Assembly (NCBI GenBank): GCA_024137785.1
Contig: JAHRHZ010000111.1
Span: 7,244,409-7,308,408, forward strand
Direction: 5' to 3'
From: Ginglymostoma cirratum
Taxonomy: Eukaryota
Length of the DNA: 64,000 nt
Shown here: positions 4,001-62,944 of the stretch, in pieces
How the letters are laid out: every line of letters begins with the position of its first letter
Numbering within the stretch: the stretch's first letter is position 1
The notes under the pieces: generated by a model
Databases searched by the model: none
The model's input: the letters and a program-made list of their open reading frames with translations, nothing else
What the model was told of the DNA's origin: nothing
Program-made: the position numbers and the translations under genes

Positions 4001-5454
4001 CCATTTTCTAGCTCCAACCTTCCCTAACTAATAGGGTCTCCAATCCTTCCAAAATGGTTGGGCGTCTCCTGAAATCAGCACTGATCTCCTGCTGGCTATT
4101 GAAATCAACCCAGAAGATCTTAACATGTTAATTTAAGGGATTATATTACCATGCACCATAACTTGTTCACAGATGCTCAGCATTCATTGTAAACAGTGAA
4201 CTAACCATCGTATACAGTATGATACATCGGTATTGATATAGATAACATGTGTATACTGCACTCTAACGTTGTTGCCTGTTCTTTCATGTCAAGATAGCTT
4301 AAGGCTAAAATTGTTGTAGAGAATGGTATACATGAGTATGCTGCATATAGTAAAAATGCATGACGGATTGGTGACTGTTGTATCTCTGGGTGTGAGAATG
4401 CTTGGTAGAAGGCTCAGAGGGCTAATCATCCGCCCCGGGCCTGTGAGGCTAAACACAGTCTGAGCAGGTAGGCAAACTTCTGCGGGAAGCAAGCAGTGCG
4501 CCACAGTCACCAGAAGGCAGCTCGCTCCACTCAGACTTGGGCTCTGTTTGCTGCAACACTGCAACCAGGAGCAGGGAACGTTACAATGCTGAGTCTGTTA
4601 CTAACATAGCCATCAGGAAACTGCAGGCCAGGGTCATCACTGGCCAGAGAATGGAAAGGCAAGACAGCCATGTGTCAGAGCATGCGTAAGGGGATGAAGA
4701 TTCAGCAGCAGCTGCTTTGAAAGAGTCACTGCCAAACTGCAGTTCCAACAGGTACCTGAATGCAGCCATATTTGAATAGGGCAATCCTAACCAAAGACAG
4801 TGACACAAAGTACTTTTGTTTATTTACATGCAAAGAAACCTATCTCCTCCCATTAGAGTCTGGGGCTTTGGACTTTGCCTCTTGCCTTGATGGATTCACC
4901 CACACTGCCAGGATTCAGTGACTGCCTTCTCTGCCAACACCTCCCAAGACCTGGTCAATGCGAAGTTGGTAACCCAACTGAATAACAGTGTTACTTTCAA
5001 TTTCTAATCTACTGGGACTGCTGCAGGATCCCTGAAATCTTGCAAAGTCAAAACCAGCATCCATGTCGTGCCTCATTTCTCCAGCTGCTACATGGCCCTT
5101 CGAAGTCTGTGTGCAGGAACAGCGGCTGCTGGAGAATGCAAAAGTGAACTTGTCAGCAGGGCAATCAGCATGCGTGCACCCTTGGAGCAAATGCACAGCC
5201 ATGCAGTTTCAAGGGAATGTTAGCCAGCACACCCACGATCTCTGCATCAATTGCATTTGGAAGTCCAGGGTATACACTATCAAGACTTAGGGAACTATCA
5301 GATTTCTGTTCTCCAACACGTTCACCTGGGTGCTACCAATCACCTTAGTTTCCTCATTCTGAAGCCTGGTAGCGTCTTGTAACTTTTTCAAGACAGTTTT
5401 CCCTTTCTAAAGCAACCCTCCCTTACCCCAAAAAAGTCAATATTTTGTACTAAC

Positions 5455-5616: not shown

Positions 5617-7220
5617 CTATTAGTTAGGGATGGGGAAAAAGAAAAGACAGACTTTATTGTTGCAAAGAAATTGTTGCAAACTTGCAACCTCAGTAAGTCA
5701 TATGGATAAAGTATGAATATACTACATATCAAGAAGCACTTAGTTAAATTCAACAGGCCTTACTGGAACAATATTAGGCTGTTAACAACTCTATTATTGA
5801 TGGAAAAATTTTGTATTTTTATCTTCCTTCTCTTATCTGTCCATTTTCTCTCTCTCAGAATCCAACTTTCTGTTCCTCTTTTTATTCCTCTTTCTAGAAT
5901 TGATTTCAACTCTTCACTTTCATTCACATTTCTCAGTCCTAAAATGTCATTGGTTTAGGACACAGACCGATGGTCACATCTTTTTCTAAAGTCCATGATC
6001 AGCCTCCCTGCATCAATCACACTTCCACCAATCACAGAACGTTGAGTTAGTGAGAGTGGACAGTTGAACAGTGTAAAAGACTCCAGCAAAAACTGGAGTT
6101 TTTACCAGCTTTTACCAAGTGCAGGCAGAATGGGTTGTTTAAAGAAGATACTAAGGAATTTTAATCCAATCCACCCACTCAGTGAATTTAAAAAGTAGGT
6201 GACTGCCAAAGAGACATCTGACTCAACTATATACAGAAATGCAAAAGATAGGAGCAGGAGTACACCATTCTGCCTTTTGAGCCTGCTCTACCATTCAATA
6301 TGATCACTGCTGATCAGAACATTAAACTCAGAACTCAGTTCCTGCTTCTCCCCACACCCTTTGTTCACATTAGGGCTAGAACTACATTTAACTCCTCCTC
6401 AAAAAGAACCCGGGTCACTCCAGCCTCATTTTTTTGAATGGAGAGGTTAATGGTGGTTATATTAAAATTATTCGGTTTACAGGTATTGCACTATCAGATA
6501 AAATTAAATTATCCTGAACTTTATGGTAGCATTTTCCACACAATTAAAGTATCACCTCCTGCTTCAGACTGAACAATGAACAGAAATCAGCCAAACGTAC
6601 CATCCTCTTTCCACAGGCTACTTTGAAGAAACATTTTGATGTGGGCACACCTGCTGTGGATGCATTTTCAAGGCAGGTGGATAAACAAATTTAAGGAAGA
6701 GGGGTGGGAGGAGGTCAATGAGCAGCATACACACCAGCAATGACCAGATATGCCAAATGGCCTACTTTGTGCTGTACATTCTATGTAACCACCGTTAAGG
6801 AGGTGACAGTAAACTGTATTCCATCACTAGGACAGTCAAGTTCGGAATCTCAGCTCATGGTCAAATAGGATGTCAAGTTTGGAAAAAGTTTGGTTCCACC
6901 GGTGACAGTGGTAAGGGGGTGAAGACAGAATATAACAGCTATGGTCATACAGTTTCACAGCATGGAAAAAGGCCCTTCAACCCACTGCGTCTACACTGAT
7001 CATCAAGCACCTACCTATTTCAATCCCATTTCCAACACTTGGCCTGTAGCCTTTTATTCCATGGTTTTTCAAGTGATGATCTAAATATTTCTTCAATGTT
7101 GTGATGGTTCTCACCTTTACTGCCCTTACCGTGAAACATGAATGAGCCAGTTTAGTTAACCTGTGTAACAACAACAGGGGCCTATAAACTACCCTACTTC
7201 TTAAACCTTGTTAGACTAAA

Positions 7221-7370
7221 AGATAACAAGGCGTAGAGCTGGATGAACACAGCAGGCCAAGCAGCATCAGAGGAGCAGGAAGGCTGACGTTCCTGCTTGG
7301 CCTGCTGTGTTCATCCAGCTCTACACCTTGTTATCTCAGATTCTTCAGCATCTGCAGTTCCTACTATCTC
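7221..7370. mobile_element. Short foldback element (Penelope-like terminal repeat derivative) with 14-bp TSD
   Basis: Arms gataacaagg...caggccaagcag and ctgcttggcctg...ccttgttatc; TSD tagactaaaagata at 7212-7225 and 7371-7384. Confidence 0.75.
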
Positions 7371-7849
7371 TAGACTAAAAGATATACAACTGACAGAGTC
7401 TGAATTAGTCTGGAGCATTCAAAATACCTTCGGTGCATTTAACTTGCAACAGTTTGAAACCTAGACCAAACAAAAGATTTGGCTGCCACAGCGATCAGAC
7501 AAAAAGACTCATTACTAATGGATCTGCCAGCATGTGTGCAGGGATAAACAAACTTAATACTTCAGATCAGTAACCTTACATCAGTTCTAATGAAACATAA
7601 ACTCTTTTTTTTCTTTGTTCACAGATAATGTCTGACCTAAGTATTTCCAACATCTACAAGTGTTTTGTATTTGAATGTGGTCAGTATCAAGCCTATTTGG
7701 AGTAAATGTGTTCAGTCTTGGGGCCTTCACAGAAATGTATATCAGTAAGACTACCTTGGTCTGGGAAGGGATACAATGCAGATTAAGTAGACTACTACTA
7801 GAGTTATAAACGATTAAATTGAGAGGTTACATTACTTAGAAAACTAATA

Positions 7850-14790: not shown

Positions 14791-17446
14791 CATTTAAAAG
14801 ACATTTGGGCAAGTACATGAATGGGAAAGGTTTTAAGGGCCAGGAGTAGTCAGGTGGGAGTAGTTTAGTTTGGGATTACATGCAGCATGGACTGGTTGAA
14901 CTGAAGGGTCTGTTTGTGAGCTTTATGACTCTATAACTCAATTGACAAGGTGGTAAAGACAGCATTGAAGAAAGGAAGTGAAGATGAAGACTTGAAAAAA
15001 GATTTTGTCTGTGGTAGAATGACAACTGAGGTTAAAGTGGGTTTTATTGTGCAGGCAAAATCTAGAGTCTTGCGGTTGCTAGGACCTTGGTCATCCTATA
15101 ATCCAGCTAAACACAGGGCCAATCAGCACACTGAGACTGTAAAACACAATAAGTCAAGCATCAGAAACCAGTTGCCTTCACTCCTCTATTCAGCCCTTCA
15201 TGTCAACTCTACCATTCAGTTAGATCATGGCTGACTGCTTTTTACCTCCGACTATCTGCTTTGCTTGTAACCATTAATATCCTTGCCTAAGTGTACAACT
15301 CAAATTGCAACAAGCAAAAATCTTCAAAAACATATGTCCTCAAACTTAGTTCAACTGCAATTAAATCTGCTTGCTGCAATAACAAAAAACCAAAGAACAG
15401 ACGAAGCTATTAGAACTGTTATATCTGTATTGATCTCAGAGAGCAACTCAGTTAGCTCCACTGTTCCTTTACTTTCCACTTAGTCCTGCAAATTTTATAC
15501 ATCCTGACAATTACACAAGTCTCTTTTAAAAGTACCAATTCTATAAGCCTCCACCAGAATCTTAGACAGTGCTTTCCAGATACTAATCTCATTCTGTGTG
15601 GAAAAATATATCTTCAGACTGCCATTGCCTTTTTACTAGTCAGCTTAAACAAATATCACTGGTTTCTCAATCTTTTCCCCAGCATGGGAACAGTTTCTCT
15701 CTATCTACTCTGTCCAGACACTTTATAATTCTGAGTACCTGTCATGTCTCCTCTCAACCTTCTCTTCTAAGGACAACAACCAGAGATTATCTATCAATAA
15801 GTCCCTCATGTCTGGAACCTTTCTCATAAATCTTTTCTGCACCCTCTCTAATACGTTCACACCAAGCATTGTTGAGTCCAAACAACAATTTTATGACGGT
15901 TTATCACAATGTCCTTACTTCTGTACTCTCTGCCATTAATTTATAAAGCTAAAGATCTCAAGCCTTTCTATCCATTAAAAAATGTCCATAGGATGTGAAT
16001 GTCATTGGCTGAACCAGCTTTTGTTGTCCATCTCTATGCCCTTGAGAATATAGTGGTGATCTGCCTTCTTAACTGCTACAGTCCATCTGCTGCAGGTATC
16101 CCCACAATGCCCCTAGGGAGAAAGTTCCAAGATTTTCATCTATCAAGACCGAAGGAACAATTATATATTTCCAAGTCAGGATGATGAGCAGCTTGGAGAG
16201 GAACTTGCAGGTGATAGTGTTCCCATCTCTATCTGCTGCCCTTGTCCTTCTAGAGGGCAGCAGTTGTGAGTTGAGAGACTGAAAATCCTCCTACAAATGG
16301 ACCAAATAATTCATGGCTCTCAGATGCTCACAAGACTGATTTCTAAACCGCATGCTATAGCTCCCCCATGCTCTCACTAAGTGTCAGTTAAGTTTCAAAG
16401 AAATTAACCCTTTATCAATATCCCTATAAACTGACAGCTTTAGTAAAATTATACTCCTTTCACAAAGTTCATGATAAAACTTTTGGTTGCAGCCCCTATC
16501 TTCCAATTTTGAACTGTACCTCAACTAGAAAAGACAAGAATGCTCAATATCACTCAGCTACTGAAGTGAGGTACTGTACATAAAGTAAATCTTAGTTTAA
16601 CAATGTTGATCATGCATTTCAGCTCAGGGATCTCACATCAGGTCTCAACAGCCACAGGTTAGCAAGGGGAAAAATTAGCTTCTCTTCACACTGCTGATGG
16701 CTTCTTTGGCAGAAGTGCATGTCTAGGTATAAAGCGAAGACCAGCAATGGCCAAGCCATGAAACAATGCCACAGGGGGAGACTCCTATGCCTTCAGTAAA
16801 TAAGGGATCGACAATGTAACAAAACCAAGGACCGCAAATGCCGTAAATCTGAAAATCAGAAACTGTGGTGAAACTCAGGAGGTCTGGCTGCACCTGCGGA
16901 GAGAAAGCAGAGTTAACATTGAGTCCAGTGGCCTCTTTCAGAACTCAGCTTGACTCGAAATATTAACTCTGCTTTCTCTCCACAGATGCTGCCAGATCTA
17001 TGGAGTTTCTCCAGCAACTCCTGTTTCTGTTAAGGAATCAACAACCTCTCGGAGGTTGGGCAGAACAGCGGGCGGAACAGAAAATAATCCCAGTGATTTA
17101 ACAAAACATTGCCAGAACCAGCGACGCTTTCCAGTTAGTCAAAATGAAGGAAAAATAAATACTTCTATTACCAAATTGTTGAATAAACAACTTTCATTTG
17201 TTCAGGTCCTTTACACTTCTGTGACGTTTTACTGCATAAATCAGACAAAAATGGACTTAAGTCGTATAAAGAGCTATATGAACAGTTGAGCACATGATTA
17301 GACACATAGCAATTTTGTAAGGAGATTATTTAAATGAGAAATAAAAGGAAGATTTAGGGAGGAAATTTCAGTGCCTAGCAGCCAGGCAGCTGAAGGCACC
17401 AATGGGGGTTGAAGAAAACGGGAGACCAACACAGATATAAACCCAC

Positions 17447-31090: not shown

Positions 31091-32869
31091 AATTGTAATA
31101 TCAACCTCACCATCAAGAAAGATGTTAAAAATCAAGTGGTCCAGTCATAAACTACAAGTTGTTTTTCCAAACATAAACCAAGGAAGAAAAGCCAGATGCA
31201 TAATCGGCAGAAGGAAATATACATCTCCCTGTAATTACTCGTCCAATATTATACAGCATATTAACTAATGCGTTAATTTGACAGCCAGGAAAAACACGAA
31301 AGCACTACATAAATCCAGATACTATTCAACAAATAAAAGGGCTTGACAAGGAAATTGCACTGAACTGCAGTCAGGAGGGAGAAGGTCAGCTTCTCCTTAA
31401 CAGGTGGTTCACATTCTAACAGAATATTCGATCATGTCACCTCACTAAATAATCTTCAAAATTAGTACAAGATTAGACTCGTGAATTTTTCAATCACGTT
31501 CTCCTGTAAAATACAAGCAATTTGTCAAAAAAAAAACAAAGCCTACCCAAAGTTTTACACATTTCACGATGCAGCTAAAAGCTACCCAAATTAACCAAGC
31601 AACAGCTGGAGTCAAATCATTAAGTTAACAAGAGCCTACTTCTAACATGGTATGATCATCATTCAGGGTCAAATACAGGGGTTCCATGAGATTTTGTTGC
31701 TAGCCACATTACAAAAACTCAAGTCAACGAACATGTCAATTGCCACTAGTGGTTATGCGACCAAGAGCTGAGGGAGGATATTTCAACAGAATGCACAATT
31801 GGCTGAAGTTGTAAATGTTATGGCCTTCAGTCAAGTATGTCTTACCAGCAGAGGTTCTCAAAATATTTTCCGTTAGAGAGCCCATTTCAAAAGACTGATA
31901 TTTAACTATTTCCCATCAGAATTAAACTGCAAAGTACTTACAAGACAATGTGCTGCATGTAAACAGTGCTTTAACAATGCTTTCAAAGAAAACATTGTAA
32001 CTGTTACCCTTTCACAAACAGAGCTGGTTTTGGCACAAAGGAGGCAATTAGTCTATGCCATCCCTCTGTACAGCAAACCAATAAGTCTTATTCTGCTGCT
32101 TTATCCCCATAAGCCTGCAAGTTTACTTCAGTGAGACTGTCTCAAGCTATATAGACAACAAAGAGGCAACTGCAGATACGCTAACATCCCCTGATGCATC
32201 AAATGGATTGCTTTTAAACAGGGTTAAAGACTCGAAACAGTGCAGAGCTGGAGGAACACAGCAGGTCAGGCAGCATCAGAGAAGTAAGAAAGTTGAGGTT
32301 TCGGGCCTAGACCCTTGAAGACTGCTTGTTTTTTGACATGCAGTCATCATCAGTTGATAGATTTTATCCAATACAAGCTGCTATTGGCCAAATGACTAAA
32401 ACAGCAATTGTGTTGTATTAACAGGCTCAAATCAAAGTATTTCAATTTAAAAAAGTTACTGCTTAATAAAGAATATTTTTCTTCAATTCTATTCCAGAGT
32501 ATTCACGTGACACAAGAATATATGCCTGTTCAAACCCAGTCTGGGTCCTTAGCACAATTTAATAATTCAAGGAATTTAGACTGCTGCAACACTTAGGAGG
32601 ATTTAAGCAAGTCAAACTGACAGCATTTCAGTAATTTCAAGAATCAAATTAAGAGATTAATACAAACAGAAAATGCTGGAAATGCTCAGCAGGACTAGTA
32701 CAGCAGTTACTCACTGAATGCACCCAAAAATCACAGCAAAAGGTGGCCTCCAACCTCCCCTCCCTCCTGAACCAGGCCGCTCATAAGCACAAAATGTTCA
32801 AGAACATCAGTAGAGACCTTAATCAGCTACGAGCACAGAAATAACATTGACAAAGTGACAGCACTTGAC

Positions 32870-41280: not shown

Positions 41281-42159
41281 CAACTGTCACTGCGGAAACT
41301 ATCAGAGAGTGATTATTGCATCCAAAGGTTCAGGTTGATGGGGCTGAAAGACATTCAACAATCCAGAGTTAGCAAAATCAATTGGCAGAGGACTGACTTC
41401 AATAGGGCAATAACAGAGCTGTGCAGGAATGCATGGAACAAGAGGTGGAAAACACTAACTGAACAATGGCTACCTTCATACAGCAGATGATTTCAGCACA
41501 GTTAAAAGCATAATCCTTCAAATGGGAAAGGTAGGATAAACAAATCCAGGGTTCCCTGGATCACAAAGGAGGTAGAAATTAATATTACAAAGAAAAATAT
41601 GCTTACGACATGTTGTAAGGCAGAAAAGAGAATAAAGAACCAAGAGCAATTCCGAAGTTTTAGAGAGGAAGGAAAAAGAAATTAGACAAACAAAGCAGTA
41701 GTATAAGAAATGACTACTAGTTTAGGAGAATCCTAAGTCTTCTACAGGCAAATAAATAGCAAAAAAATGGTTAAAGGATTTCTAGAACTGATTTAAGACC
41801 ACAAAGGGAACTTACACACAATGGCAGGAGGTATAGTTGTGGTGTTAAATGAATACTTTGCATCTGTTTTACTGAGAAAAAGGGGATGAACTCCAGGCCA
41901 TGTTGACAGAGGACAGAACTCTTGTTACTAAAAAGGTTCAAAATGAATACAAGAAAAGTCTTGGATAGACTATTAGCACTTAAAGTTGACAAGGCAGAGG
42001 GGCCCAATGAGAAACATCCAAGGATTTTAAAGAAAGCGAGAGTAGAAATTACAGGGATTCTGGTCATAATCTTTCAGTCTTCCCTGGAATCAAGACTGGA
42101 GAATTGTGAACATTACTGCATTGTTCAAGAAGGGCCTAAAGGATAGCAATTACAGACCA

Positions 42160-42291
42160 GAGATAGCAGGAACTGCAGATGCTGGAGAATCTGAGATAAC
42201 AAGGTGTAGAGCTGGATGAACACACCAGGCCAAGCAGCATCAGAGGAGCAGGAAGGCTGACGTTTTGGGCCTAGACCCTCTTTTCTGAAGA
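42160..42291. mobile_element. Same family, single arm, 16-bp TSD
   Basis: TSD agcaattacagaccag at 42145-42160 and 42292-42307. Confidence 0.75.
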
Positions 42292-42652
42292 AGCAATTAC
42301 AGACCAGTTTGTTTAACTTCAGTGGTGGGGAATCTTATTGAACAAATTATTTGAGATAAAATTAGTAGTCACATCGAGAAACATGGGTTGATTAGGAGGA
42401 GTTAGCATGGATTTCTAATGGTAAAATCATGCTTAACTCACTTGAGGCTTCACGAACAGATAAAGAATCAATGAGGGTAATGCTGTTGATGTGTTATACA
42501 TGGATTTCCTAAAGTCAATTGAAACAGTGACACACAACAGACTAGTGACGAATGTTATTGGTCATTGTACAAAAAGAACAATAGAAATGTGGATACGAAA
42601 TTGGCTGAGTGATCGGAAACAGAGAGTAACAGTCAACTGACATTTTTCCAGT

Positions 42653-43802
42653 CAAAGAACAAAGAAAATTACAGCACAGGAACAGGCCCTTTGGCCCTCC
42701 AAGCCTGTGCCGATCCAGATCCTCTATCTAAACCTATCACCTATTTTCCAAGGATCTGTATCCCTCTGCTCCCTACCCATTCACGTATCTGCCTAGATAC
42801 ATCTTAAATGACGCTATCGTGCTCGCCTCTACCACCTCCGCCGGCAACGCGTTAAAGGCACCCACCACCCTCTGCGTCTTTATGCAGGTTCCATGCATAA
42901 CTTTCCACGCATATCTCCCTTAAACTTTTCCCCTCTCACCTTGAAATCGTGACCCCTAATAACTGAGTCCCCCACTCTGGGAAAAAACTTCTTGCTATCC
43001 ACCTGGTCTATACCTCTCATGACTTTGTAGACCTCAGTCAGATCCCCCCTCAACCTCCATCTTTTTAATGTAAATAATCCTAATCTACTCAACCTGTCTT
43101 CATAGCTAGTACGCTCCATACCAAGCAACATCCTGGTGAACGTCCTTTGCACCCTCGCCAAAGCATCCACATCCTTTTGGTAAAGTGGCGACCAGAACTG
43201 TATGGAGTATTCCAAATGTGATCAAACCAAAGTCCTATACAACTGTAACATGACCTTCCAACTCTTGTACTCAATACCCTGTCCGATGAATGAAAGCAGG
43301 CTGTATGCCTTCTTGACCCCTCTATCGACCTGCGTTGCCACCTTCAGGGTACAATGGACCTGAACACCCAGATCTCTCTGTGCATCAATTTTCCCAGGGC
43401 TTTTCCATTTACCATATAATTCGCTCCTGAATTGGATCTTCCAAAATGCATCACCTTGCATTTGCCTGGATTGAACTCCATCTGTCATTTCTCTGCCCAA
43501 CTCTCCAATCTATCTATATTCTGCTGCATTCTCCGACAGTCCCCTTCACTATCTTCTACTCCACCAGTCTTAGTGTCATCTGCAAACTTGCTAATCAGAT
43601 CATTTGAACCTTCCTCCAGATCATTTATGTATATCACAAACAACTGTGGTCCCAACACGGATCCCTGTGGAACACCACTGGTCGCAGTTCTCCATTTTGA
43701 GAAACTCCCTTCCAGTACAACTCTCTGTATCTTGTTGCCCAGCCAATTCTCTATCCATCTAGCTAGTACACCCTGGACCCCGTGTGACTTCACTTTCTCC
43801 AT
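42653..43802 (-). mobile_element. Young 5'-truncated CR1 LINE
   Basis: SGVPQGSVLGPQLFVIYINDL, ISKFADDTKTGG, QFWSPLYQKD; tail aaagaacaaagaaaattacagc. Confidence 0.9.
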
Positions 43803-44930: not shown

Positions 44931-46479
44931 TGAAATGATGATTATGTTACAAAAGAGAAGACTGAGGGTTAACTGTAGATTTAAAATAACAAAATATTTG
45001 GGTAGACACTGTTAGAGTTGTTTAACTATTAAACTAAAGAATTGAACTATTTGATCCTTTCACCCTGCTCCACGATTCAACAAGTCTATGGCTGATCAGC
45101 TATTTCAACCTCACCATCAGGCACTATTCCCATATCCACAAAAGTGTTTGATTGTGAACTTTACTGACCTCTGTCTCAAATATACCCGACCAGCGAGTAT
45201 CCACAGTTCTCCGGGGTGGAGACTTTCAAGGTTCACAACCCTTTGAGTGGGGTATTTTCTCCCCTTGGAAGCTTCCCTCAATGGCCAACACTTTGGTGGT
45301 CTCACCAAAGTCCTACATAAATATATAGTCCTAAAGTTGTTGTAATTATCAGATGTTTGGAAGTAGAAGCATTGGAATTAGAGACAAAGATCAAGTCAGA
45401 GGGAAAATTGCATGGATGCTGGCTTTAGGCATATCAGAAGGGTACTAATTTCGGTCTGTTATGTTGTCACAGCTGTAAACAAGTCTCTGAATAACTTCTG
45501 AAAACTTGCATCCTCGCTATTTCTTAATTCTGCCCAGAATCCATCCAGAAGACTTTTAAATTTAGAAATAAAACAAACCAATCTTGTCCAATTGCAAATA
45601 GGGACCAAATCATTAGTTTCTCACAAGCTCTCTCCAACTATCCATTATAAATTCATGTGAGAGGATTATCATTCAAGTTAGAGCCACGTTCAGATTCCCT
45701 CAACATCAAGCACAAAACAAAGTTTGCTTGACCATCACCCATCTGATGTTTGTTTGGAAACACCTGACTTACCTGCATCTTCAGAGGGAGTTTGTGGAGA
45801 GGCAACCAACTCCAATTTCTGGCAAGCTCTGAAAGCTCCAACACATGCACAAACAGTACAAGCTGCAGATACTCAATCCAGCATTCTGGGTTCTTCAGTG
45901 GCTGTTACACAAAAAAAAATAGTGTGCCTGCGCAGAGTGGTGGTGTGAAACTCTGACTACTGCACAAGTGGCAGTCGGGATAAAGCAAGCCAGGGAACTG
46001 GATGTTAGTTAGAAGCTGGGAGAAGGGATTTCAGACAGTTCTGTGTTTAGCAGGTTTCAGGCAGTAAGGATGCTCAAGAAGTCTTGGGAGTGGCAAACGT
46101 GGCAGAAGGTGGTTGGCGACAAAGTGAGTGCTCAGAAGCAGCTCTGGGTGCCTTTGAAAATTCAGTGCACTTGAGACCAGGGTGAAAGAAACCCAAAAGC
46201 AATATTTGCTTGATGTAGCTGAGAAATATTGAAGTTGAGAAAACCCTCGCAGCAGTGCACAGCTTAATTGCAATAGCTCACTGTGGAACGGCTGGAATTA
46301 TGCCCATGAGAAGGTACTAGTGTGCAGCCTCAGAAACCCAATGGAATAGAGAAAAAGCAACTGTACATCCAGGACATTCAAAGAGTATGGCGGAGCAGCA
46401 TTTGATAAATTTCCAAAGCTTGATCTTTGAAAATGAAGAATTGGAATCCCTTCAAAAACAGACAAATAACCCCAAATAA

Positions 46480-46656
46480 GATAACAAGGTGCAGAGTTGG
46501 GTGAACACAGCAGGCCAAGCAGCATCAGAGGAGCAGGAAAGCTGACGTTTCGGGCCTAGACCCGAAACGTCAGCTTTCCTGCTCGGCCTGCTGTGTTCAC
46601 CCAACTCTACACCTTGTTATCTCAGATTCTATAGCATCTGCAGTTCCTACTATCTC
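46480..46656. mobile_element. Same family, foldback copy
   Basis: Central near-palindrome gctgacgtttcgggcctagacccgaaacgtcagc; flanks ccaaata(a/t)gat on both sides. Confidence 0.75.
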
Positions 46657-48359
46657 CAAATATGATGCTGTGGGAAATGAACTTATTCCAGAATTGTAGA
46701 GTAGTTTTCACCCATTGAGAGGTACCAAAGATATGATGTTTACTGCGTCGCAAATTCAAGTGTAAGTATTTGCACGACAGGCTGTACATGATTTTTTTGA
46801 CCTCAAAAATCCTTTTGACACTTACCAATTTCAAAGGCTTAAAGGAGGCATCTTTCTCAAATTTAGTTGCCTTCAGAAAGTTGTCATTACTCTCTTTCCA
46901 TGATGGCACTAACAGAACTATTACAAATCTTATCTAAGCGAAAACATTAAAGTAAGGAAAGACAAGAAAGCATTGTCATAATGCCAGCTCTTCAATGTTC
47001 TTGTTGTAAGATTACACCTCAGCTGTGGGGATTTTCTACAGGACAGGAACTGTTCAATTTATGCAGTCTTCAATTCCAAAACCAAATAACTCCATCTCCA
47101 TCGTAAAGCAGCATTCAGGTGAGGTTAGTGTGTACATTCACTCAAAAACTAAGTTAAAGTCATTGCCTACTCTTTCTCTGAAGCATATGAGCAGATGGAT
47201 TCTTGTCACCCAGAATTCTAAAGTCGTCTTCCAACCAGTTGCCACAGCAGAACAGCTCTCCCCATTCATTTAGGAGCAGTGGAGAGAAACTGGAAAACGT
47301 AGACCATTTTCCATATCTCTGAAGCTGACTGTAGGGGGCATATTTTTAAGATGAGGGGAAAAACATTCTAAAAAGACATGAGGGGTAAATGTTTTGACAC
47401 GGAGGGTGGTTCATGTGTGGAATGAATTTCCTGACAAAGTGGTGGACGCAGGCACAGTTACAACATTTAAAAGGCACTTAGATAAGTACAAGAATAGGAA
47501 ATGTTTGGAGGGATATGGGCCAGGAGCAGGCAGATGGGATTAGTTTAGTTTGGGATGGACTGGTTGGACCGAAAAGTCTGTTTCTGCGCTGCATGATTGC
47601 ATGACTCTAAGATTTGGTGATCCTTTGTGTCCCAAACACTGGGGTGGGAGGAATTTACTCTCAAATTCATGGGATCTGATTAAGCACATCTGCTAGTTGA
47701 TGTGTTCTGCAGGGTTTTCAACTGCAGTTCCTCTTTAAACCATATTCCAAATGTTAGCACAGGTTATACATATACACGGCAGATTGTGTTAGCTGTCCAA
47801 CTTTGTCTAATAAAGCTCATTTCGTTTACTCAAAACCATGGACTCTTATCACTTTATTCTCTTAAATATCTAGAATCACAACCTTCTGCTGTAAAACAGA
47901 AAAGCATTCCTTGTCCTGAAGCAGTTGATAACAACTCTGTAATCTTGTCGGGAATCATGACACTGTAGTCATTTCCTCAGAGTTAACCATCTACAAAATG
48001 AATTGCAGAAACTTACCAAGGATCCACTGACAGCGCTGTCCAAACCCACAAACTCTACCATTCAGCACAATAAAGGCAACAGGGCTACACCACCCCCTGC
48101 AAGTTCCTCTTCATGTCGTACGCCATCCTGATTTGGAACCGTAACACCATTCTTTCACTGTCACTGGGTCAAAATCCTGTAACAGCCTCCCTCACATCAG
48201 AAATGCCTATACTGTTCAGCAGGGGCTCACCACCTTCTTGAGGATAACTTGGGATGAACAAATGTTAGCTTTCCCAGAGATACACATCCTTAATACAAAT
48301 ACCAAAAACAACAGACACTAGTTCCAAAACCTTGATGGCTGCATCTGTTAATGACTTAC

Positions 48360-51480: not shown

Positions 51481-52448
51481 CACCGGAACAGCTCTCTTCT
51501 ACCACAGTACTGGTGCTGGTGGTGCATGACATGAAAATAAGTACCATTGCCAAGGGAGACATGTTCCAGATGAGGCCGGTGTACATTTAAACATAACTCC
51601 AGATATAACACAGAATGCCAGTCTTCTCAAAAAGGATAACATTTCCATATTTGTCATGGAAGTCAGGACCAGGTTTAGGCTGAACTTTTCTTGCTACAAC
51701 TTGGTGAATGCTCCAACCGGATAGAGAGCAGGCTGCTGGTCAAAGGCATTATCTTCACCATTAAAAGCCAACCACACCTGATATACACAGCCAGTCTCTC
51801 ATCTGAGTACACACCAGGCCCTAGTCTGCTTAGCTTCTAAAAGCAAACAAGATTGGACATTTTCAGACTCTTGCGGTTGGATCAAGGGCCACCTAACTAG
51901 CTCATTCCCATGTTCTTTCCCTGTAGCCCTGTAATTTTTTTCTCCAAATACACAGTGAATTACTTTTGAACATTGGTTCAGTCGTATGGAAAATTCTGGA
52001 AAAAGGAGGCAAGCGCTCAGCAAAGGTTATTAAAGCTTCCAGAACAAGTAATAGGACAAGAAATTTTGATCCAAGTGCCCAGATGTTAGGAGTACTTTGC
52101 AGGGTTAACTGAGCTTGGTGAAAAGTCAATTGTGAGGCATCTTTATGAAGGTGTCTGTTTAAATTAAATTCACCACAGCGGCTCTGGATCATTTAGATAG
52201 TACCCGTGCTTTAATCATTTTGGAAATTTCAACATGGATATATTTACATGGGCTTAGAGAAAGAACCCTGAAGGGGTTGAATTGGGTACCTATGCAAAGA
52301 GCTAGTAGAGACACAATGGTTCAAATGGTGTCATTCTATGATTAGTAGCACACAGATAAGAGGGGCCAAGGAGCAATTATTTGAAAGGAACGGATGCACT
52401 TTTATCACGGAGATCTCTAAAGCTGGTAGCAACAAACTGACCACACTC

Positions 52449-54346: not shown

Positions 54347-56237
54347 CTTTAATCACAAAAGAAAGTAATTATCCCATACACTAATTTCAAAACAAATTTC
54401 TTGCACTGATCATCATGGTCTCTGCACGAAACTTGTTCCCAGGCATTGCACTATGAAACCAAACTTTCCATCAACCAAATTGCAAAACAAATGTGCACAG
54501 TGAGATAGTGAAAAATAAAACCCAGTTTTCTGCTGTCATGGAGATATTACTGATGTTTGTATATTCTTGATTGACAAGGTGGTTATAGGTAATAGGGGAA
54601 AGTGAGTAAAGTGGAGTGGAGGCCACAATCCTATTAGGAATTGGAGCAGGTCTACGGGGCTGAATGGCCTCCTGCGGCACCAGTTCTCATGTCTCAAGAC
54701 TCAGTGCTCCCTACTAGGCTATTTCAGTAATATCGGTGATGGAGAGCAGCTGGGGTCTTTATCCTCTATGCACCATCAACTCTCCCAAGTATAAAAGAGA
54801 CAAAATTTTAAATAGTTTCATTTGGAGTAAATTGGCTTATTAATGGTCTTCATTGTACACTAAGTATATCATGGGATCAGTAAACAGTTGATCATCAGTT
54901 GAGAAACTTATATTCCCTCAGCCAACAGTGGAGCACTGTTAACTCGAGGAACAGTATGGTCATGGCAACACAAAGACCAAGACTTCTTTTTAAAATTGAT
55001 AATGAAAGAAGATAGACATTGGTAATAAATGTGGTAGAGGAAACAGATGGGGGGCAAGGACACAGATACAAACATTACTACATGTATCAACACATATTAA
55101 TGCTGTTAAAAAAGTGCAAAGAACACTCAGGCTAATTTTGAGGGATAGAATTGGAAAATGGAGAAGTTATGTTGCACATGAAAAGCATTAAACAATTTTC
55201 ATTAACACAGTGTCTTTAACATTTTAAACAAGTCAAAGATGTTTCATAGTATTATCAGTCAAAATCTGACACCATGTCACATATTAGAACGGGGGCGTAT
55301 GTATTAAGGAGTGTCAAAAAGGAGGAAAACAAGGTAAATAGGATCCAGGATTTTTAATCAGCTGAAGGCACAGTCAAAGAAAACAAAATCTGTGGCCAGG
55401 GAGTAAGACAGCATTCAAACTCTGAAGCATCAGTGCATGAGACCAAGTAAGAATGGCTCCTTTGTTTGGCATTTCAGGGCAATCTCCCCAGATGACAGCA
55501 CTGTGCCATTTTTGACAGGTGGTAACCAAGCTCAACACTTTCCACTTTCCAACAAGGCTGTAAAGTGCAGGAGAAAATGGCATAAGCGAAGCAGACTGAT
55601 TAGGAAAGACTACCCAATGACATGATTTACCATATGTATGTTCAACCCTCATCCATGCCATATCCTCAAAGCAGGAAAGTGGGGCTAGATTAGAAGGAAG
55701 GTCGGACTGCTTTAGTTTGGGATTATGTTCAGCATGGACTGGTTGGATCAAAGCATCTGGTTCCGTGCTGTATGACTCTATAACGTTATTAATTTTCCCT
55801 TTGCGTTCCAGGCATCCAAAAGGCATGGCTTCAAGATGAAAGCTAGATTAAAACCATGGATGAACTTGTATCTTTCCGGTGACCTAACACTTCAAGTCAT
55901 TTTGAAATGGTTGAGTTGTAAGTTTAGTACACTGGTTATGCACTCCTGTCACTGGACATGATTCCAATCTTTTCAAAGGTAATATCTGCTGGCTTAACAA
56001 ATCAACACTCCACAGAATCCAAAGTGAAAATGCAGCCAACAGTTCTGACTTGCTGACGTACGTAGGTGAAGTCTATTCAACCTGCCTCATGTAAAACCAA
56101 AGCTTCTATAATCAATCTTCTGGAATCCCTCGACATACTCCAGGTTTTGAGGGCAACAGGAATTTCAAAAGAATATCCATCACCTAAGTGACTGGTGGTC
56201 AACAGGACAGGGAGAAGAAACAAAATCAAGTGTAACA

Positions 56238-56357
56238 GAGATAGTAGGAACTGCAGATGTTGGAGAATCTGAGATAACAAGGTGCAGAGCTTGATGAACA
56301 CAGCAGGTCTGATGCTGCTTGGTCTGCTGTGTTCATCCAGCTCTACACCTTGTTATC
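56238..56357. mobile_element. Same family, foldback copy with 13-bp TSD
   Basis: TSD atcaagtgtaaca at 56225-56237 and 56355-56367. Confidence 0.75.
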
Positions 56358-57120
56358 AAGTGTAACAACCCATTTAGAAAAATAATTAATACAATTAATA
56401 GAAATCAAAACAAAAAACAAGTGAATGGGACACTCACTAGATCAAGTAGCTTCTCTGCCGTGTGTTAACTCAAACTTTTTACAATTATGCAGCTCTTTTT
56501 TCAGGTGTTTCCCTGGCTGGTCGATGCTCTAACTGAGAAAAATTACTCTTTGTATTGAGAACCCCAATTTAACTAAGAAACTATCCAACAACATGCTCTG
56601 AAAACCCTGTTCAAACTTTGATATTCCACAATATTCTAAAATACATCAATAACATTCTATAAAAACTTTAATTCGTCTCATCACCCAATGCTAATGGATC
56701 TTCTTAAACAAAAATTCCAGGGTCTGCATCCACATCTTCACAGACATTGACTAATTATTCTTTTAACCATACCCTGTATGCCAAGTTTCACTGAAATCCA
56801 ACCATGATCTCTGAGACAAATTGTTTAATCAACAAACTGACAAGAAAAAATATTATGTCGCCATTCAATCACATAAATTACAAAAATGCAACAAATAAAT
56901 CAGCCATCTCTGCAGGAAGAGAGGGGTTTTATGCATTATTGCCAAAATGCCAAGGTATAGGCTGATCAAATTGGACATGAAGTGCTGTGTCCAATTCTGG
57001 TCACTCACACACACAGTGAGATGTTCTACTCCCAGAAGGTAGTTTAGAGAAAACAAGGAGAATGATATCTAGCTCCAGTAGAAGACAGAAAGGACTGCAG
57101 ATGGAAGTCAGTGTCCATAT

Positions 57121-57275
57121 AATGTGGAGCTGGAGGTCAGCAGGTCAGACAGCATCTGAGGAGCAGGAAGGTCAAAGATTTGGGTCTGGGCCTGACGAAG
57201 GGTCCAAACCCAAAACATCAACTTTCCTGCTCCTCAGATGCTGTCTGACCTGCTGTGCTCCTCCAGCTCCACATT
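57121..57275. mobile_element. Related foldback element with hammerhead-like core
   Basis: About 65-bp inverted arms around ctgacga-agggtccaaaccc-aaaac. Confidence 0.7.
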
Positions 57276-57719
57276 TTTTCAAATCTCTAACATCACAGTC
57301 ATTTCTGCCAGCCTAAGTGTCCTAGTGCCTCAATCTATGTAAATATAATTTTACACATGTCAGAGATTCCTTTGGTTTGTTTGGATACAGCCAAACTCAA
57401 ATGTTTGTTTGTTTACTTGATACGATATTGCACAGAACTGAAATGCATTTGTGACAATGTATATATACGAAGAGATTGTTTTATGAAAAGCATACTTTTG
57501 AAATAAAAAACAGTTGCACTGCACCATTCCAGCCCACCAGCTTGTGCCACTCCCCAAAGGGTATTGTATCATACAGGGGAAGAGCTGCATTAACTCCTTT
57601 GTATGAATTTGAGAGTTCTCCTTAAGCATGTCATGAGGTTAACAGACCAGAGGGAAAAAGTTACGACTTTGTGGAACAACATATAATTTTGAAGTAGAGT
57701 ACAATATCAGAATACATAC

Positions 57720-60140: not shown

Positions 60141-62944
60141 CGCATCAATGCTAACCAGGGGTGGTGCTATTAGATATTTCACATATAAAAAAATTAACTC
60201 CCTTGCTATTAGAAATTTATGAAAGGACGTGGGGGGAAAAAAGATCTTGCATGTCAGTCCAGTTTAATAAATGAATTAATTTACTGAGATATTTCAATTT
60301 ACTTTCACAAGGAGAAGAGTATAGTACCAAAAGTATTTATTGTAAATGTCAGCCAAGGTTCAGTGGGTTGCAAAAACAGAAGTTGCTGGAAAAGCTGAAC
60401 AGGTCTGGCAGCATCTGTGAAGGAAAAAATCAGAGTTAACGTTTTGGGTCTGGTGACCCTTCCTCAGAATTTCCTCAGGCTTGCAGCCTGGCCTCTGAAG
60501 GAGGTACCTTCAATCCCCATTTCAGAGACTTGACTATTATATTTTGCTTGATTCTCCTGGTACAGTTGTGAGGGCATGTCATACTGTCACAAGCACTGAC
60601 AGCATGATGATGGACCTTTTTGATCTTGTGGCATCTATGCATCGACTGAAATAAGACATTGGGACAACTCACCATACTTTTAAATACTGCTGTGGGATAT
60701 TTTATGACCTCTGAAAGGGCAGACAACATTTCTGACAAGGCAGCATAGTCTTTGTGTGAAATTTTGCTTTGCTTCCTTCTTTATATGGTTAGAAATGTTT
60801 AAAGATGTTCCTAACATACTTTGGGATTTCCCAAAGAATCAAAGGGCACCATTTAAATGCATGTTCTTTCTTTTGCAAACTGCTAAACACGAGCAAAGAC
60901 TGCAGAATGTAAACATGGGCAATGGCTTTGTGCATTTTTCAGGTGATTAATTTTCCCGGCCAGAGACACATTGATACAGACTCATTTAAGACAAACACTG
61001 TACCATAGAAACACAGAGGTGCAGAGTAGATTTGTCAGAACACTCCCAGTGATGAGGAACTTCAATTTTCTGGATAGGCTAGAGAATGAGCATTGAAGGA
61101 TAAATGATAAATAGGGGATACTCAATATTAAGGGAGGTTTGAAAGAGTTGATGAGGAGAAACTGCTTCTGCTAATAGAGTCAGGGGGCAGACAGTGAAGA
61201 TTCATGATAACTGGTAAAATAACGAGAATGAGAGATGAGAATTACTTTTATGTAGTGAATCAGGATGATCTGAAATACAGGGCATGGAAGTGTTGTAGAT
61301 TCAATAAATTTCTAAAAATGAAATGGCCATGATGTGGAAAAGTAAAACAGTGCTGTGTTTGTGTGAAAGAACAGGATTTGCAGGCGCAAGTAGCCATATG
61401 AAATTATAACATAGTGACAATAACAAAGATCTGACCTCCTTTGCTGGCTCCTTTGTAGGAGTGGGAGAAAAACTCATCTCCCTTAATTTTTGTGGAGCTT
61501 GGCCCCTTTGGCTGAATATAGTTCAGGGTATCTCTAAGAATATGTGAACCATAAGGGATCCTCAGCCTGAAGCTGGGGAAACAAAAAGTAACAGCCACCA
61601 GCTGCTGGAATTCTTTCATTAACAGGCTTTGGAAAACAAAAAGAAATCTGTGTCCTCATTTTCAATACTTAGTTGCTATTTAGAGAACTCTTGTTCCCTT
61701 TGGGAAAGATGCCATTATACATTCAAAACTGAAGAAAACACTTCTTGGAAAATATGTGTTTGGATCTAAAGTGGTTTAACTGTTCACACCCTTTAAATTT
61801 GAGAAAAAGAATCAGAATGTGGCTTTCCCTTAGAATACTGTTTTAAAGAAGATGCAGAAACAAGAGACCAATGGATATATAAGCACAAATCTTTGAAGAT
61901 GGCTAGCCACGTCACGAAGGCTATTTTAAAAATTCCATAGGAGATACTTGACTTCAGAAAATAGAGGCATAGAGTACAAGAGCAAGGAAGTTAGCTAAAT
62001 CTTCAGAAAATATTGGTTAGGCCTCATCTGCAGTATTGTTTCCAATTCTGACACCTAAACTTCAGAAAGAATGTTCAGAAAGTGCAGAAGTGATTTACTA
62101 GAATGGTCACCTTCTATTCTTCTAGCATCTGACGTCAATAGCTCATCTTCTGCCATTTCCACTATGTCCAGCATTACGGCGGCAACAACCTTGCTCTCCA
62201 CTTTCGGAATTCCCGGATTTGTTCCCGAGGTGAGACCCTTGTTTAATCCTTTGCAATCTTCACGTCTCCTCCCTTTCCTGCAGCACAGGAAAAATATTTT
62301 CTAATCAACCTGTTCAGAGATGTTATTAACACATCACTGGAGCAGGCGGGGCTTAAACCCAGGTCTCCTAGCTGAGAGGTAGGGACACTATCACTGCTCC
62401 ACAAGAACCTTTATCCTACAGCACAGTTTCACTCAAGTGCAGAGCATGTAACACCCATCCTCAGAACTCCTCCGTTATGAACAGGCAAAGCCCCAAACCC
62501 TGCCTTAGAAGGGAAACGGTCATTTACTTTCACTTCTTTCAATTTAGTTACTTGCATTCATTGCAAATCTGTAGATCTCTTCTAGTCTAATTTGCACACT
62601 GAGTGATCTCTTTGCAGGACACCTCTATTTAGCTCACAGACGTAGACTTTCAATCATGAATTTCAATTCTTCACCTTTCTCTCCATCTCACCTCATTTCT
62701 TGCTTGTTTGAACAGAGACTGTAATATGCTCCTGGCAGAATCCAAAAAGAGCATTGGTGAACAGGTTGTTGGTGAGTAAATGGCAACTGATGACACTGTT
62801 GAAGACACCTTCTTTTGCTCATGATTGAGAGTGGACTGGTGACAATAATTACCTGGGTTGCATTTGTTAGCCGTTTTTGCTCACAGCTAGGTAATTTTCC
62901 CCTTTGATAGTTGGATGGCTGTAGCTGCACTAGAAGAAGTTCAC

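What the first reader, a model, noticed from the sequence alone, without database searches (positions are those of the whole stretch)
7212..7384. Family of tiny foldback retroelements with a fixed GATAAC end and long TSDs
Seen: four 120-180 bp copies (7221-7370, 42160-42291, 46480-46656, 56238-56357) share one end, GAGATAGTAGGAACTGCAG. Three fold back and stop at the same point (…CCTTGTTATC) while their centres are deleted differently. Each has an 11-16 bp direct duplication, and in the three foldback copies it overlaps the element end by GAT/ATC. Known: long variable TSDs fit target-primed reverse transcription, and inverted terminal copies are typical of Penelope-like elements. Inference: a non-autonomous hairpin-RNA element mobilised by a PLE, with microhomology-guided attachment of one end.
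Basis: partly seen in the sequence, partly recalled or inferred. Interest (0 to 1): 0.7.

Follow-up and report, generated by a model that had tools for sequence, protein, structure and literature searches.

The report
Tiny mirror-image Penelope retrotransposon insertions
These small DNA hairpins are very short insertions of a known kind of jumping gene (a Penelope-like retrotransposon) in the already described mirror-image-plus-tail shape, likely built afresh each time by copying the element's RNA from both sides of a DNA cut, so they are mostly ordinary but useful clues to how such elements insert.

Summary
The four copies and their 11-16 bp duplications are real. They are not a separate hairpin element: the arm is the hammerhead-bearing end (pLTR) of an RT + GIY-YIG Penelope-like element of Neptune type, with 45,478 exact 28-mer hits in the genome. 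The same design runs from about 120 bp to 2.75 kb. The GATAAC end and the GAGATAG end are two sites 35 nt apart inside the element's RNA, i.e. the published PLE tail. Among two-ended insertions flanked by duplications, 49 of 52 pair one end of each kind. Central seams differ (47 of 49). Microhomology is weak (mean 1.5-1.9 nt against 0.7) and occurs at both ends, not one. The GATAAC end wanders a few bases. Likely mechanism: both strands of a ~14-nt staggered cut prime reverse transcription, one at each site, and many copies run off just before the ribozyme core. The architecture is in print. The scan has already found this on other DNA of this and other genomes, with the same reading.

The parts
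7212..7225 (+). Copy 1, left target-site duplication (14 bp; last bases shared with the element end)
7222..7290 (-). Copy 1, arm ending at site A (GATAAC end), reaching element position about -70
7293..7370 (+). Copy 1, arm from about -42 through site A plus the 35-nt tail (7336-7370) to site B
7371..7384 (+). Copy 1, right duplication
42145..42160 (+). Copy 2, left duplication (16 bp)
42160..42281 (-). Copy 2, tail (42160-42194) plus arm reaching into the hammerhead motif
42282..42293 (+). Copy 2, 12-nt inverted stub that starts at the common 5' boundary (-95) and joins the target through AG
   Evidence: read directly; boundary
42292..42307 (+). Copy 2, right duplication
46472..46482 (+). Copy 3, left duplication (11 bp, 1 mismatch)
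46480..46563 (-). Copy 3, arm ending at site A, reaching about -84; seam through a shared CCC (46561-46563)
46561..46656 (+). Copy 3, arm from about -75 with a 14-nt internal deletion, plus tail (46622-46656)
46656..46666 (+). Copy 3, right duplication
56225..56237 (+). Copy 4, left duplication (13 bp)
56238..56307 (-). Copy 4, tail (56238-56272) plus short arm to about -35
56308..56357 (+). Copy 4, arm from about -50 ending at site A
56355..56367 (+). Copy 4, right duplication (first 3 nt shared with the element end)

Best explanation
These are miniature insertions of the hammerhead-bearing end of an RT + GIY-YIG Penelope-like element, and each was likely built at the moment of insertion by reverse transcription primed from both strands of a staggered cut, one strand at each of two internal start sites 35 nt apart. 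Shown: identity with the element's pLTR, two end sites inside the RNA, one-of-each pairing, duplications of about 14 bp, weak two-sided microhomology, differing seams. Inferred: the cut leaves two 3' overhangs; each anneals by 0-5 nt to the RNA, one at the GATAAC site and one at the tail end; the two antisense cDNAs are then joined head to head. Inferred with less certainty (about 0.55): many arms stop 3-4 nt before the ribozyme core because that is the 5' end of the element's mRNA, so the tiny copies are run-off copies of its leader.
For: L031 has the same plan at 2.75 kb and encodes RT (Pfam E 1e-6) and a weak GIY-YIG match (E 0.044); its homologues pass both Pfam cut-offs in P0059. L170 is a full partial-tandem copy: ribozyme core, site A 92 nt on, site B 35 nt further, ATG 39 nt further, ORF, second pLTR. 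A motif just past the tail has 196 exact hits against 45,478 for the arm, so both ends are internal sites. Pairing: 26 AB, 2 AA, 0 BB of 28 two-ended insertions in the arm-selected set (p about 1e-6); 20 AB, 1 BB of 21 in the tail-selected set; 3 AB in the window. Microhomology 1.52 (44 clean of 65 A ends) and 1.89 (45 clean of 66 B ends) against 0.71; 0 of 2000 for both random and swapped-target nulls. Neither arm is regularly longer: 21, 21, 7 equal of 49. The same A-rich bias lies outside the duplication on both sides (A at -7: 47 of 65 and 39 of 66). 65 of 208 arms start at -99..-93; a second family stops 1-5 nt before its core in 34 of 52 cases; both carry an initiator-like YYANWYY there (consensus recalled). 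In vitro a Poseidon element cuts and extends both strands and starts at two sites that bound the tail (PMC11167929).
Against: Copies are old (about 4.6% from the majority), so later deletion could have reshaped seams and arm lengths. PMC11167929 reports no difference of start site between strands and no homology between primer and template, so strict one-of-each pairing is not explained by it. 31 of 80 analysed insertions of the arm-selected set had no duplication above threshold, and 20 of the 48 kept showed one or no recognisable end. Only 14 of 49 seams show an overlap of 1 nt or more; 28 have filler or indels. The commonest 5' boundary is one base after the initiator-like A, without a clear cap-G signal (next base T 21, G 11, C 5 of 37). 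No raw RNA reads were available to show a start site. Long copies are common: 43 of the first 100 core matches continue upstream exactly.
Confidence: 0.62

Rival explanations
1. Same element, but the mirror arm arises by self-priming or copy-back: one cDNA (or an antisense RNA) folds back and is copied, and the endonuclease resolves the intermediate 35 nt short on one side.
For: Proposed for Adineta elements from palindromic junctions (PMC3846280, passages); Craig et al. ascribe the tail to endonuclease resolution (PMC8557442, passages). It predicts one tail per insertion, as seen, and matching arms: concordant at subfamily sites in 23 of 28 and 27 of 31 pairs.
Against: The site-A arm reaches further 5' than the tail arm in 21 of 49. 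A 14-nt deletion is confined to one arm, sometimes the A arm (L284, L290, L296) and sometimes the tail arm (L293, L295, L300, window copy 3), read by eye from 20 of 367 hits, about half without a readable partner arm. Microhomology at both ends fits priming at both. All three points can be blurred by later deletion.
Confidence: 0.2
2. The copies were inserted as long inverted structures and shrank later by deletion of the unstable palindrome centre.
For: Long versions exist (up to 1.3 kb in the sample, 2.75 kb in L031); many seams have indels.
Against: Random deletion would not pile 65 of 208 inner ends into 7 bases, nor at the same place in a second family. It probably contributes to the ends scattered between -92 and -31 (103 of 208).
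Confidence: 0.1
3. One reading: a non-autonomous hairpin RNA is transcribed and retrotransposed as a unit by the Penelope enzyme.
For: Abundance and narrow size range (insert 67-292 bp in 47 of 49); non-autonomous PLE derivatives exist (PMC8557442 passages; bioRxiv 10.64898/2026.07.22.740005 parts 1-3). An earlier AI note (e1-9334436) reports two copies with a shared seam; I did not see those copies.
Against: 47 distinct seams of 49; the seam of copy 3 recurs in only 19 hits, with the tail on either side and with different subfamily letters; size continuum into coding copies.
Confidence: 0.05
4. A MITE or other DNA transposon with terminal inverted repeats.
For: Short, inverted arms, high copy number.
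Against: Asymmetric 35-nt tail, variable 11-18 bp duplications, direct continuity with an RT + GIY-YIG ORF.
Confidence: 0.01

Closest known systems
Insertions of endonuclease-bearing Penelope-like elements with inverted pLTR, one-sided tail and TSD (Pen2a_Av and Pen2_Av of Adineta vaga, PMC3846280; general scheme in PMC8557442)
   Same: Inverted 5'-truncated copy, 30-40 bp tail at one end (here 35), duplication of the target, partial tandems, initiator-like motif in the pLTR.
   Different: Here both arms are usually under 130 nt with no ORF, duplications are longer (11-18, median 14, against 8-10 bp cited), and copy number is in the tens of thousands.
Poseidon of Anolis carolinensis, PAc (PMC11167929)
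   Same: Two internal RT start sites bounding the tail, downstream of a hammerhead; the tail end lies 119 nt from the start of stem II here and a start site 111-118 nt from it in PAc; preference for A/T-rich targets.
   Different: Here the sites lie upstream of the likely ATG rather than inside the ORF, the linker has the Neptune-type cysteine motif, short microhomology is detectable, and the two sites are used one per end.
Minimal hammerheads of metazoan PLEs (PMC4209133)
   Same: CUGANGA core, extra base before helix II, G-C closing pair, GAAAC-GUC without helix III; pairs on opposite strands 100-700 bp apart were already noted there as truncated PLEs.
   Different: Activity untested; arms do not pile up at the predicted cut (9 of 208).
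L1 twin priming
   Same: Both target strands prime on the RNA and give an inversion.
   Different: L1 segments do not overlap and the second primer anneals at variable sites; here the arms overlap almost fully and both start sites are set by the element.
Non-LTR retrozymes (bioRxiv 10.64898/2026.07.22.740005)
   Same: Non-coding, hammerhead-bearing, derived from pLTRs.
   Different: Retrozymes are head-to-tail tandem units; these are head-to-head pairs with individual seams.

Membership tests
EN+ Penelope-like element | Single ORF with RT followed by C-terminal GIY-YIG endonuclease | tested here: met
   L031 RT E 1e-6, GIY-YIG E 0.044 (below cut-offs in this decayed copy), L033 GIY-YIG E 0.0076; homologue P0059 passes both cut-offs; L170 holds the whole broken ORF
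EN+ Penelope-like element | Partial tandem forming pseudo-LTRs | tested here: met
   L170: 1588-1783 repeats 5153-5343 at 90% around the ORF
EN+ Penelope-like element | Inverted truncated copy with 30-40 bp tail at one end | tested here: met
   35 nt; 49 of 52 two-ended insertions have one tail
EN+ Penelope-like element | Minimal hammerhead motif in the pLTR | tested here: met
   Core, stem II with pairing-preserving variants, GAAAC-GUC; no Rfam hammerhead family hit; cleavage untested
EN+ Penelope-like element | Target-site duplication | tested here: met
   49 of 80 against about 2% of controls
Neptune clade | Zn-finger-like cysteine motif in the RT-EN linker | tested here: met
   C-x4-C-x2-C in L170, L172, L033 and homologues; feature named for Neptune and Nematis in PMC8557442
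Neptune clade | Placement in the RT tree with named Neptune elements | not tested
Non-autonomous element moving as a hairpin unit | Copies share one internal structure by descent | tested here: not met
   47 distinct seams of 49; recurring seam in both polarities
Non-LTR retrozyme | Head-to-tail tandem units each with a hammerhead | tested here: not met
   Window copies are head-to-head or single
MITE | Symmetric terminal inverted repeats and fixed-length TSD | tested here: not met
   One-sided tail; TSD 11-18 bp
Described Dfam or Repbase family | Match to a curated consensus | not testable with these tools

The most novel reading that the evidence does not exclude
A Penelope RT dimer primes both overhangs of one ~14-nt staggered cut on its own mRNA, one at each internal start site, and on the 5' leader both cDNAs run off the transcription start. 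The tail and the inverted pLTR of all such elements would then be one twin-priming signature, and these tens of thousands of hairpins an in vivo map of cut stagger, priming and RNA start.
Probability: 0.4. Interest if true: 0.55.

Novelty: new member of a known kind. Interest (0 to 1): 0.33.

Why it matters
As an object it is ordinary. Its use is as a large natural data set on an open question: how Penelope-like elements make inverted ends with a tail on one side. The one-of-each pairing, the two-sided microhomology and the common 5' boundary give direct predictions for the existing in vitro system. It also warns that such hairpins will be miscalled as MITEs or microRNA precursors (weak miRNA-model hits).

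Tried and rejected
Rfam: only sub-threshold miRNA-type hairpin matches over the copies and no hammerhead family. Folding the leader RNA gave no unusual stability (z 0.88). Ribozyme cleavage as the source of the 5' ends: rejected, 9 of 208 ends at -67..-61 against 65 at -99..-93. A fixed endonuclease motif as the source of the overlap: not favoured, since swapping real targets gives the random level. A cap-derived G at the boundary: not evident. RNA evidence: only contigs of guessed RNA runs were offered; they show loose ends at the same three boundaries but cannot show a start site, and no joint at the suspected intron. One false duplication (L079, element against itself) was removed. A domain scan of the DNA beside copy 2 gave no result, so its host repeat is not classified. 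Look-up of earlier findings by sequence was empty.

Full report
Observation. The four copies, their shared 19-mer and their duplications are present as described. Three are fold-backs. Copy 2 has one arm plus a 12-nt inverted stub. The window lies in a 4.36-Gb genome; the closest named protein relatives of the element come from carpet sharks and rays.

Parent element. Hits of copy 4 in the genome run on into coding DNA. L031 has the same plan at 2.75 kb: tail, a long antisense arm, and an inverted arm of about 790 nt ending at the GATAAC site. Its 556-residue stop-free frame matches RT (E 1e-6) and weakly GIY-YIG (E 0.044). L170 is a whole partial-tandem copy with a broken ORF between two pseudo-LTRs. 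On it the order is hammerhead core, site A (GATAAC end) 92 nt on, site B (GAGATAG end) 35 nt further, ATG 39 nt further. The N-terminus after that ATG resembles those of homologues (by eye). The RT-EN linker has a C-x4-C-x2-C motif, the feature given for Neptune and Nematis clades; no tree was built. Exact counts: arm 28-mer 45,478, arm-into-tail 34-mer 16,242, 29-mer just past the tail 196. Both ends are thus internal sites of the RNA.

Samples. Set U: the first 100 of 45,478 arm hits, all on one contig, gave 98 clusters; 6 at locus edges and 12 touching N were dropped; 49 of 80 had a duplication scoring 9 or more, against 2.2% of 600 swapped-flank controls. Set B: 61 of the 100 listed tail hits; 6 edge, 11 touching N, 15 without duplication, 29 kept. 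One false case (L079) was removed. Dropping N-touching insertions may bias the sample to older copies.

Ends. Two-ended insertions: U 26 AB, 2 AA, 0 BB (p about 1e-6 against independent choice); B 20 AB, 1 BB; window 3 AB. The rest had one or no recognisable end. Duplications in the 49 AB cases are 11-18 bp, median 14. Site A ends lie within -2..+2 in 35 of 44 clean cases and site B ends at +33..+41 in 42 of 45. Overlap with the target averages 1.52 nt at A and 1.89 at B against 0.71 for random DNA and 0.71-0.73 for swapped real targets, 0 of 2000 each; without the three window ends the A mean is 1.34 (hand arithmetic). Outside the duplication both sides are A-rich and T-poor, with A at -7 in 47 of 65 and 39 of 66 ends.

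Centres. 47 of 49 seams differ; the tail arm is longer in 21, the A arm in 21, equal in 7; 14 overlap by 1-7 nt, 7 are flush, 28 have filler or indels. Arms of one insertion usually share subfamily letters (23 of 28 and 27 of 31; p 0.003 and 0.002) but overall differ as much as arms of different insertions (7.4% against 7.7%), since the copies are old. The seam of copy 3 has 19 hits genome-wide and appears with the tail on either side (many of these loci are partly unreadable), which fits reuse of a CCC microhomology and not descent from one hairpin.

Common 5' boundary. Of 208 arms, 65 start at -99..-93, 38 run past -110, 103 start between -92 and -31, and 9 lie within 3 nt of the predicted ribozyme cut. 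A second family, represented in the window, stops 1-5 nt before its core in 34 of 52 cases, 13 continuing. Both have an initiator-like motif there (consensus recalled). Against a simple start-site reading: the modal first base is one after the A and there is no clear extra G. Genome-wide, long copies are frequent (32,714 exact hits across the boundary; 45,199 core hits; 43 of the first 100 core hits continue). Contigs of four guessed RNA runs show loose ends at sites A, B and this boundary, which confirms the boundaries in other data but not a transcription start.

Mechanism. Shown steps are the anatomy and statistics above. Inferred: a symmetric staggered cut leaves two 3' overhangs of about 14 nt; each primes on the RNA with 0-5 nt of pairing, one at A and one at B; the two cDNAs are joined head to head (0.62). 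On the leader of the mRNA the cDNAs would run off the 5' end (about 0.55; alternatives are RT stalling at the ribozyme fold or trimming by the endonuclease). Copy-back remains the main rival (0.2).

Literature. PMC11167929 (main text parts 1-2 of 4; supplements not read): two internal start sites bound the 30-40 bp tail; both strands are cut and extended; protein predicted to be a dimer. PMC3846280 (passages): inverted pLTR, 31-bp tail, 8-10 bp duplications, self-priming proposed. PMC8557442 (passages): general scheme. PMC4209133 (parts 1-2 of 4): minimal hammerheads, opposite-strand pairs already noted. PMC2377424 (abstract and passages): internal promoter with initiator in the Penelope pLTR. 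bioRxiv 10.64898/2026.07.22.740005 (parts 1-3 of 5): retrozymes from pLTRs. PMC8969392 and PMC9977147 (passages): 5'-truncated PLE insertions, median 128 bp in Chlamydomonas. A twin-priming account of PLE inversions did not show in the listings, and no description of this shark family; the library lacks most subscription papers, Dfam and Repbase. L1 twin priming is recalled.

Earlier scan notes. After my reading was fixed, searches showed many notes on the same phenomenon in this and other genomes with the same conclusions; they are not independent support. One suggested unit propagation and prompted.

Verdict. Interest 0.33.

Noticed in passing
window 16800-17045: Fold-back of a second, older PLE family with the same plan: tail on the left, arms 16866-16920 and 16959-17013, and an imperfect duplication of about 14 bp.
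   Followed up: partly
window 57085-57295: Fold-back of a third related end sequence with a canonical-type core at 57192 and 61-nt arms; no clear duplication.
   Followed up: partly
window 32240-32316: Single diverged arm of the same family without recognisable ends.
   Followed up: no
window near 60467, minus strand: Another hammerhead-bearing arm of the second family that starts 2 nt before the core.
   Followed up: no
L141 and L170, leader between ribozyme and ATG: A 27-codon upstream ORF ends in TGA exactly at the tail end and is in frame with the main ATG 13 codons on. A branch-point-like and acceptor-like sequence precedes the ATG, and one subfamily has a GTGAGT donor-like word right after the TGA. 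No splice joint was seen in contigs.
   Followed up: partly
L140-L169: Copies that read past the tail often jump back to the pLTR after 50-300 nt of ORF start, giving short tandem units, as if from repeated template jumps.
   Followed up: no
window 42652-43798: DNA downstream of copy 2 matches (71%) a stretch of L031 with an RT-like frame, so copy 2 probably sits in a LINE; not classified.
   Followed up: no
window 51766-51881, minus strand: 5S rRNA-like sequence just under the Rfam threshold (37.9 of 38 bits), possibly a pseudogene or SINE head.
   Followed up: no
G000: The subfamily with the canonical CUGAUGA core continues upstream more often (32 of 65) than the CUGAAGA one (11 of 35), so the yield of tiny copies may differ by subfamily.
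   Followed up: partly
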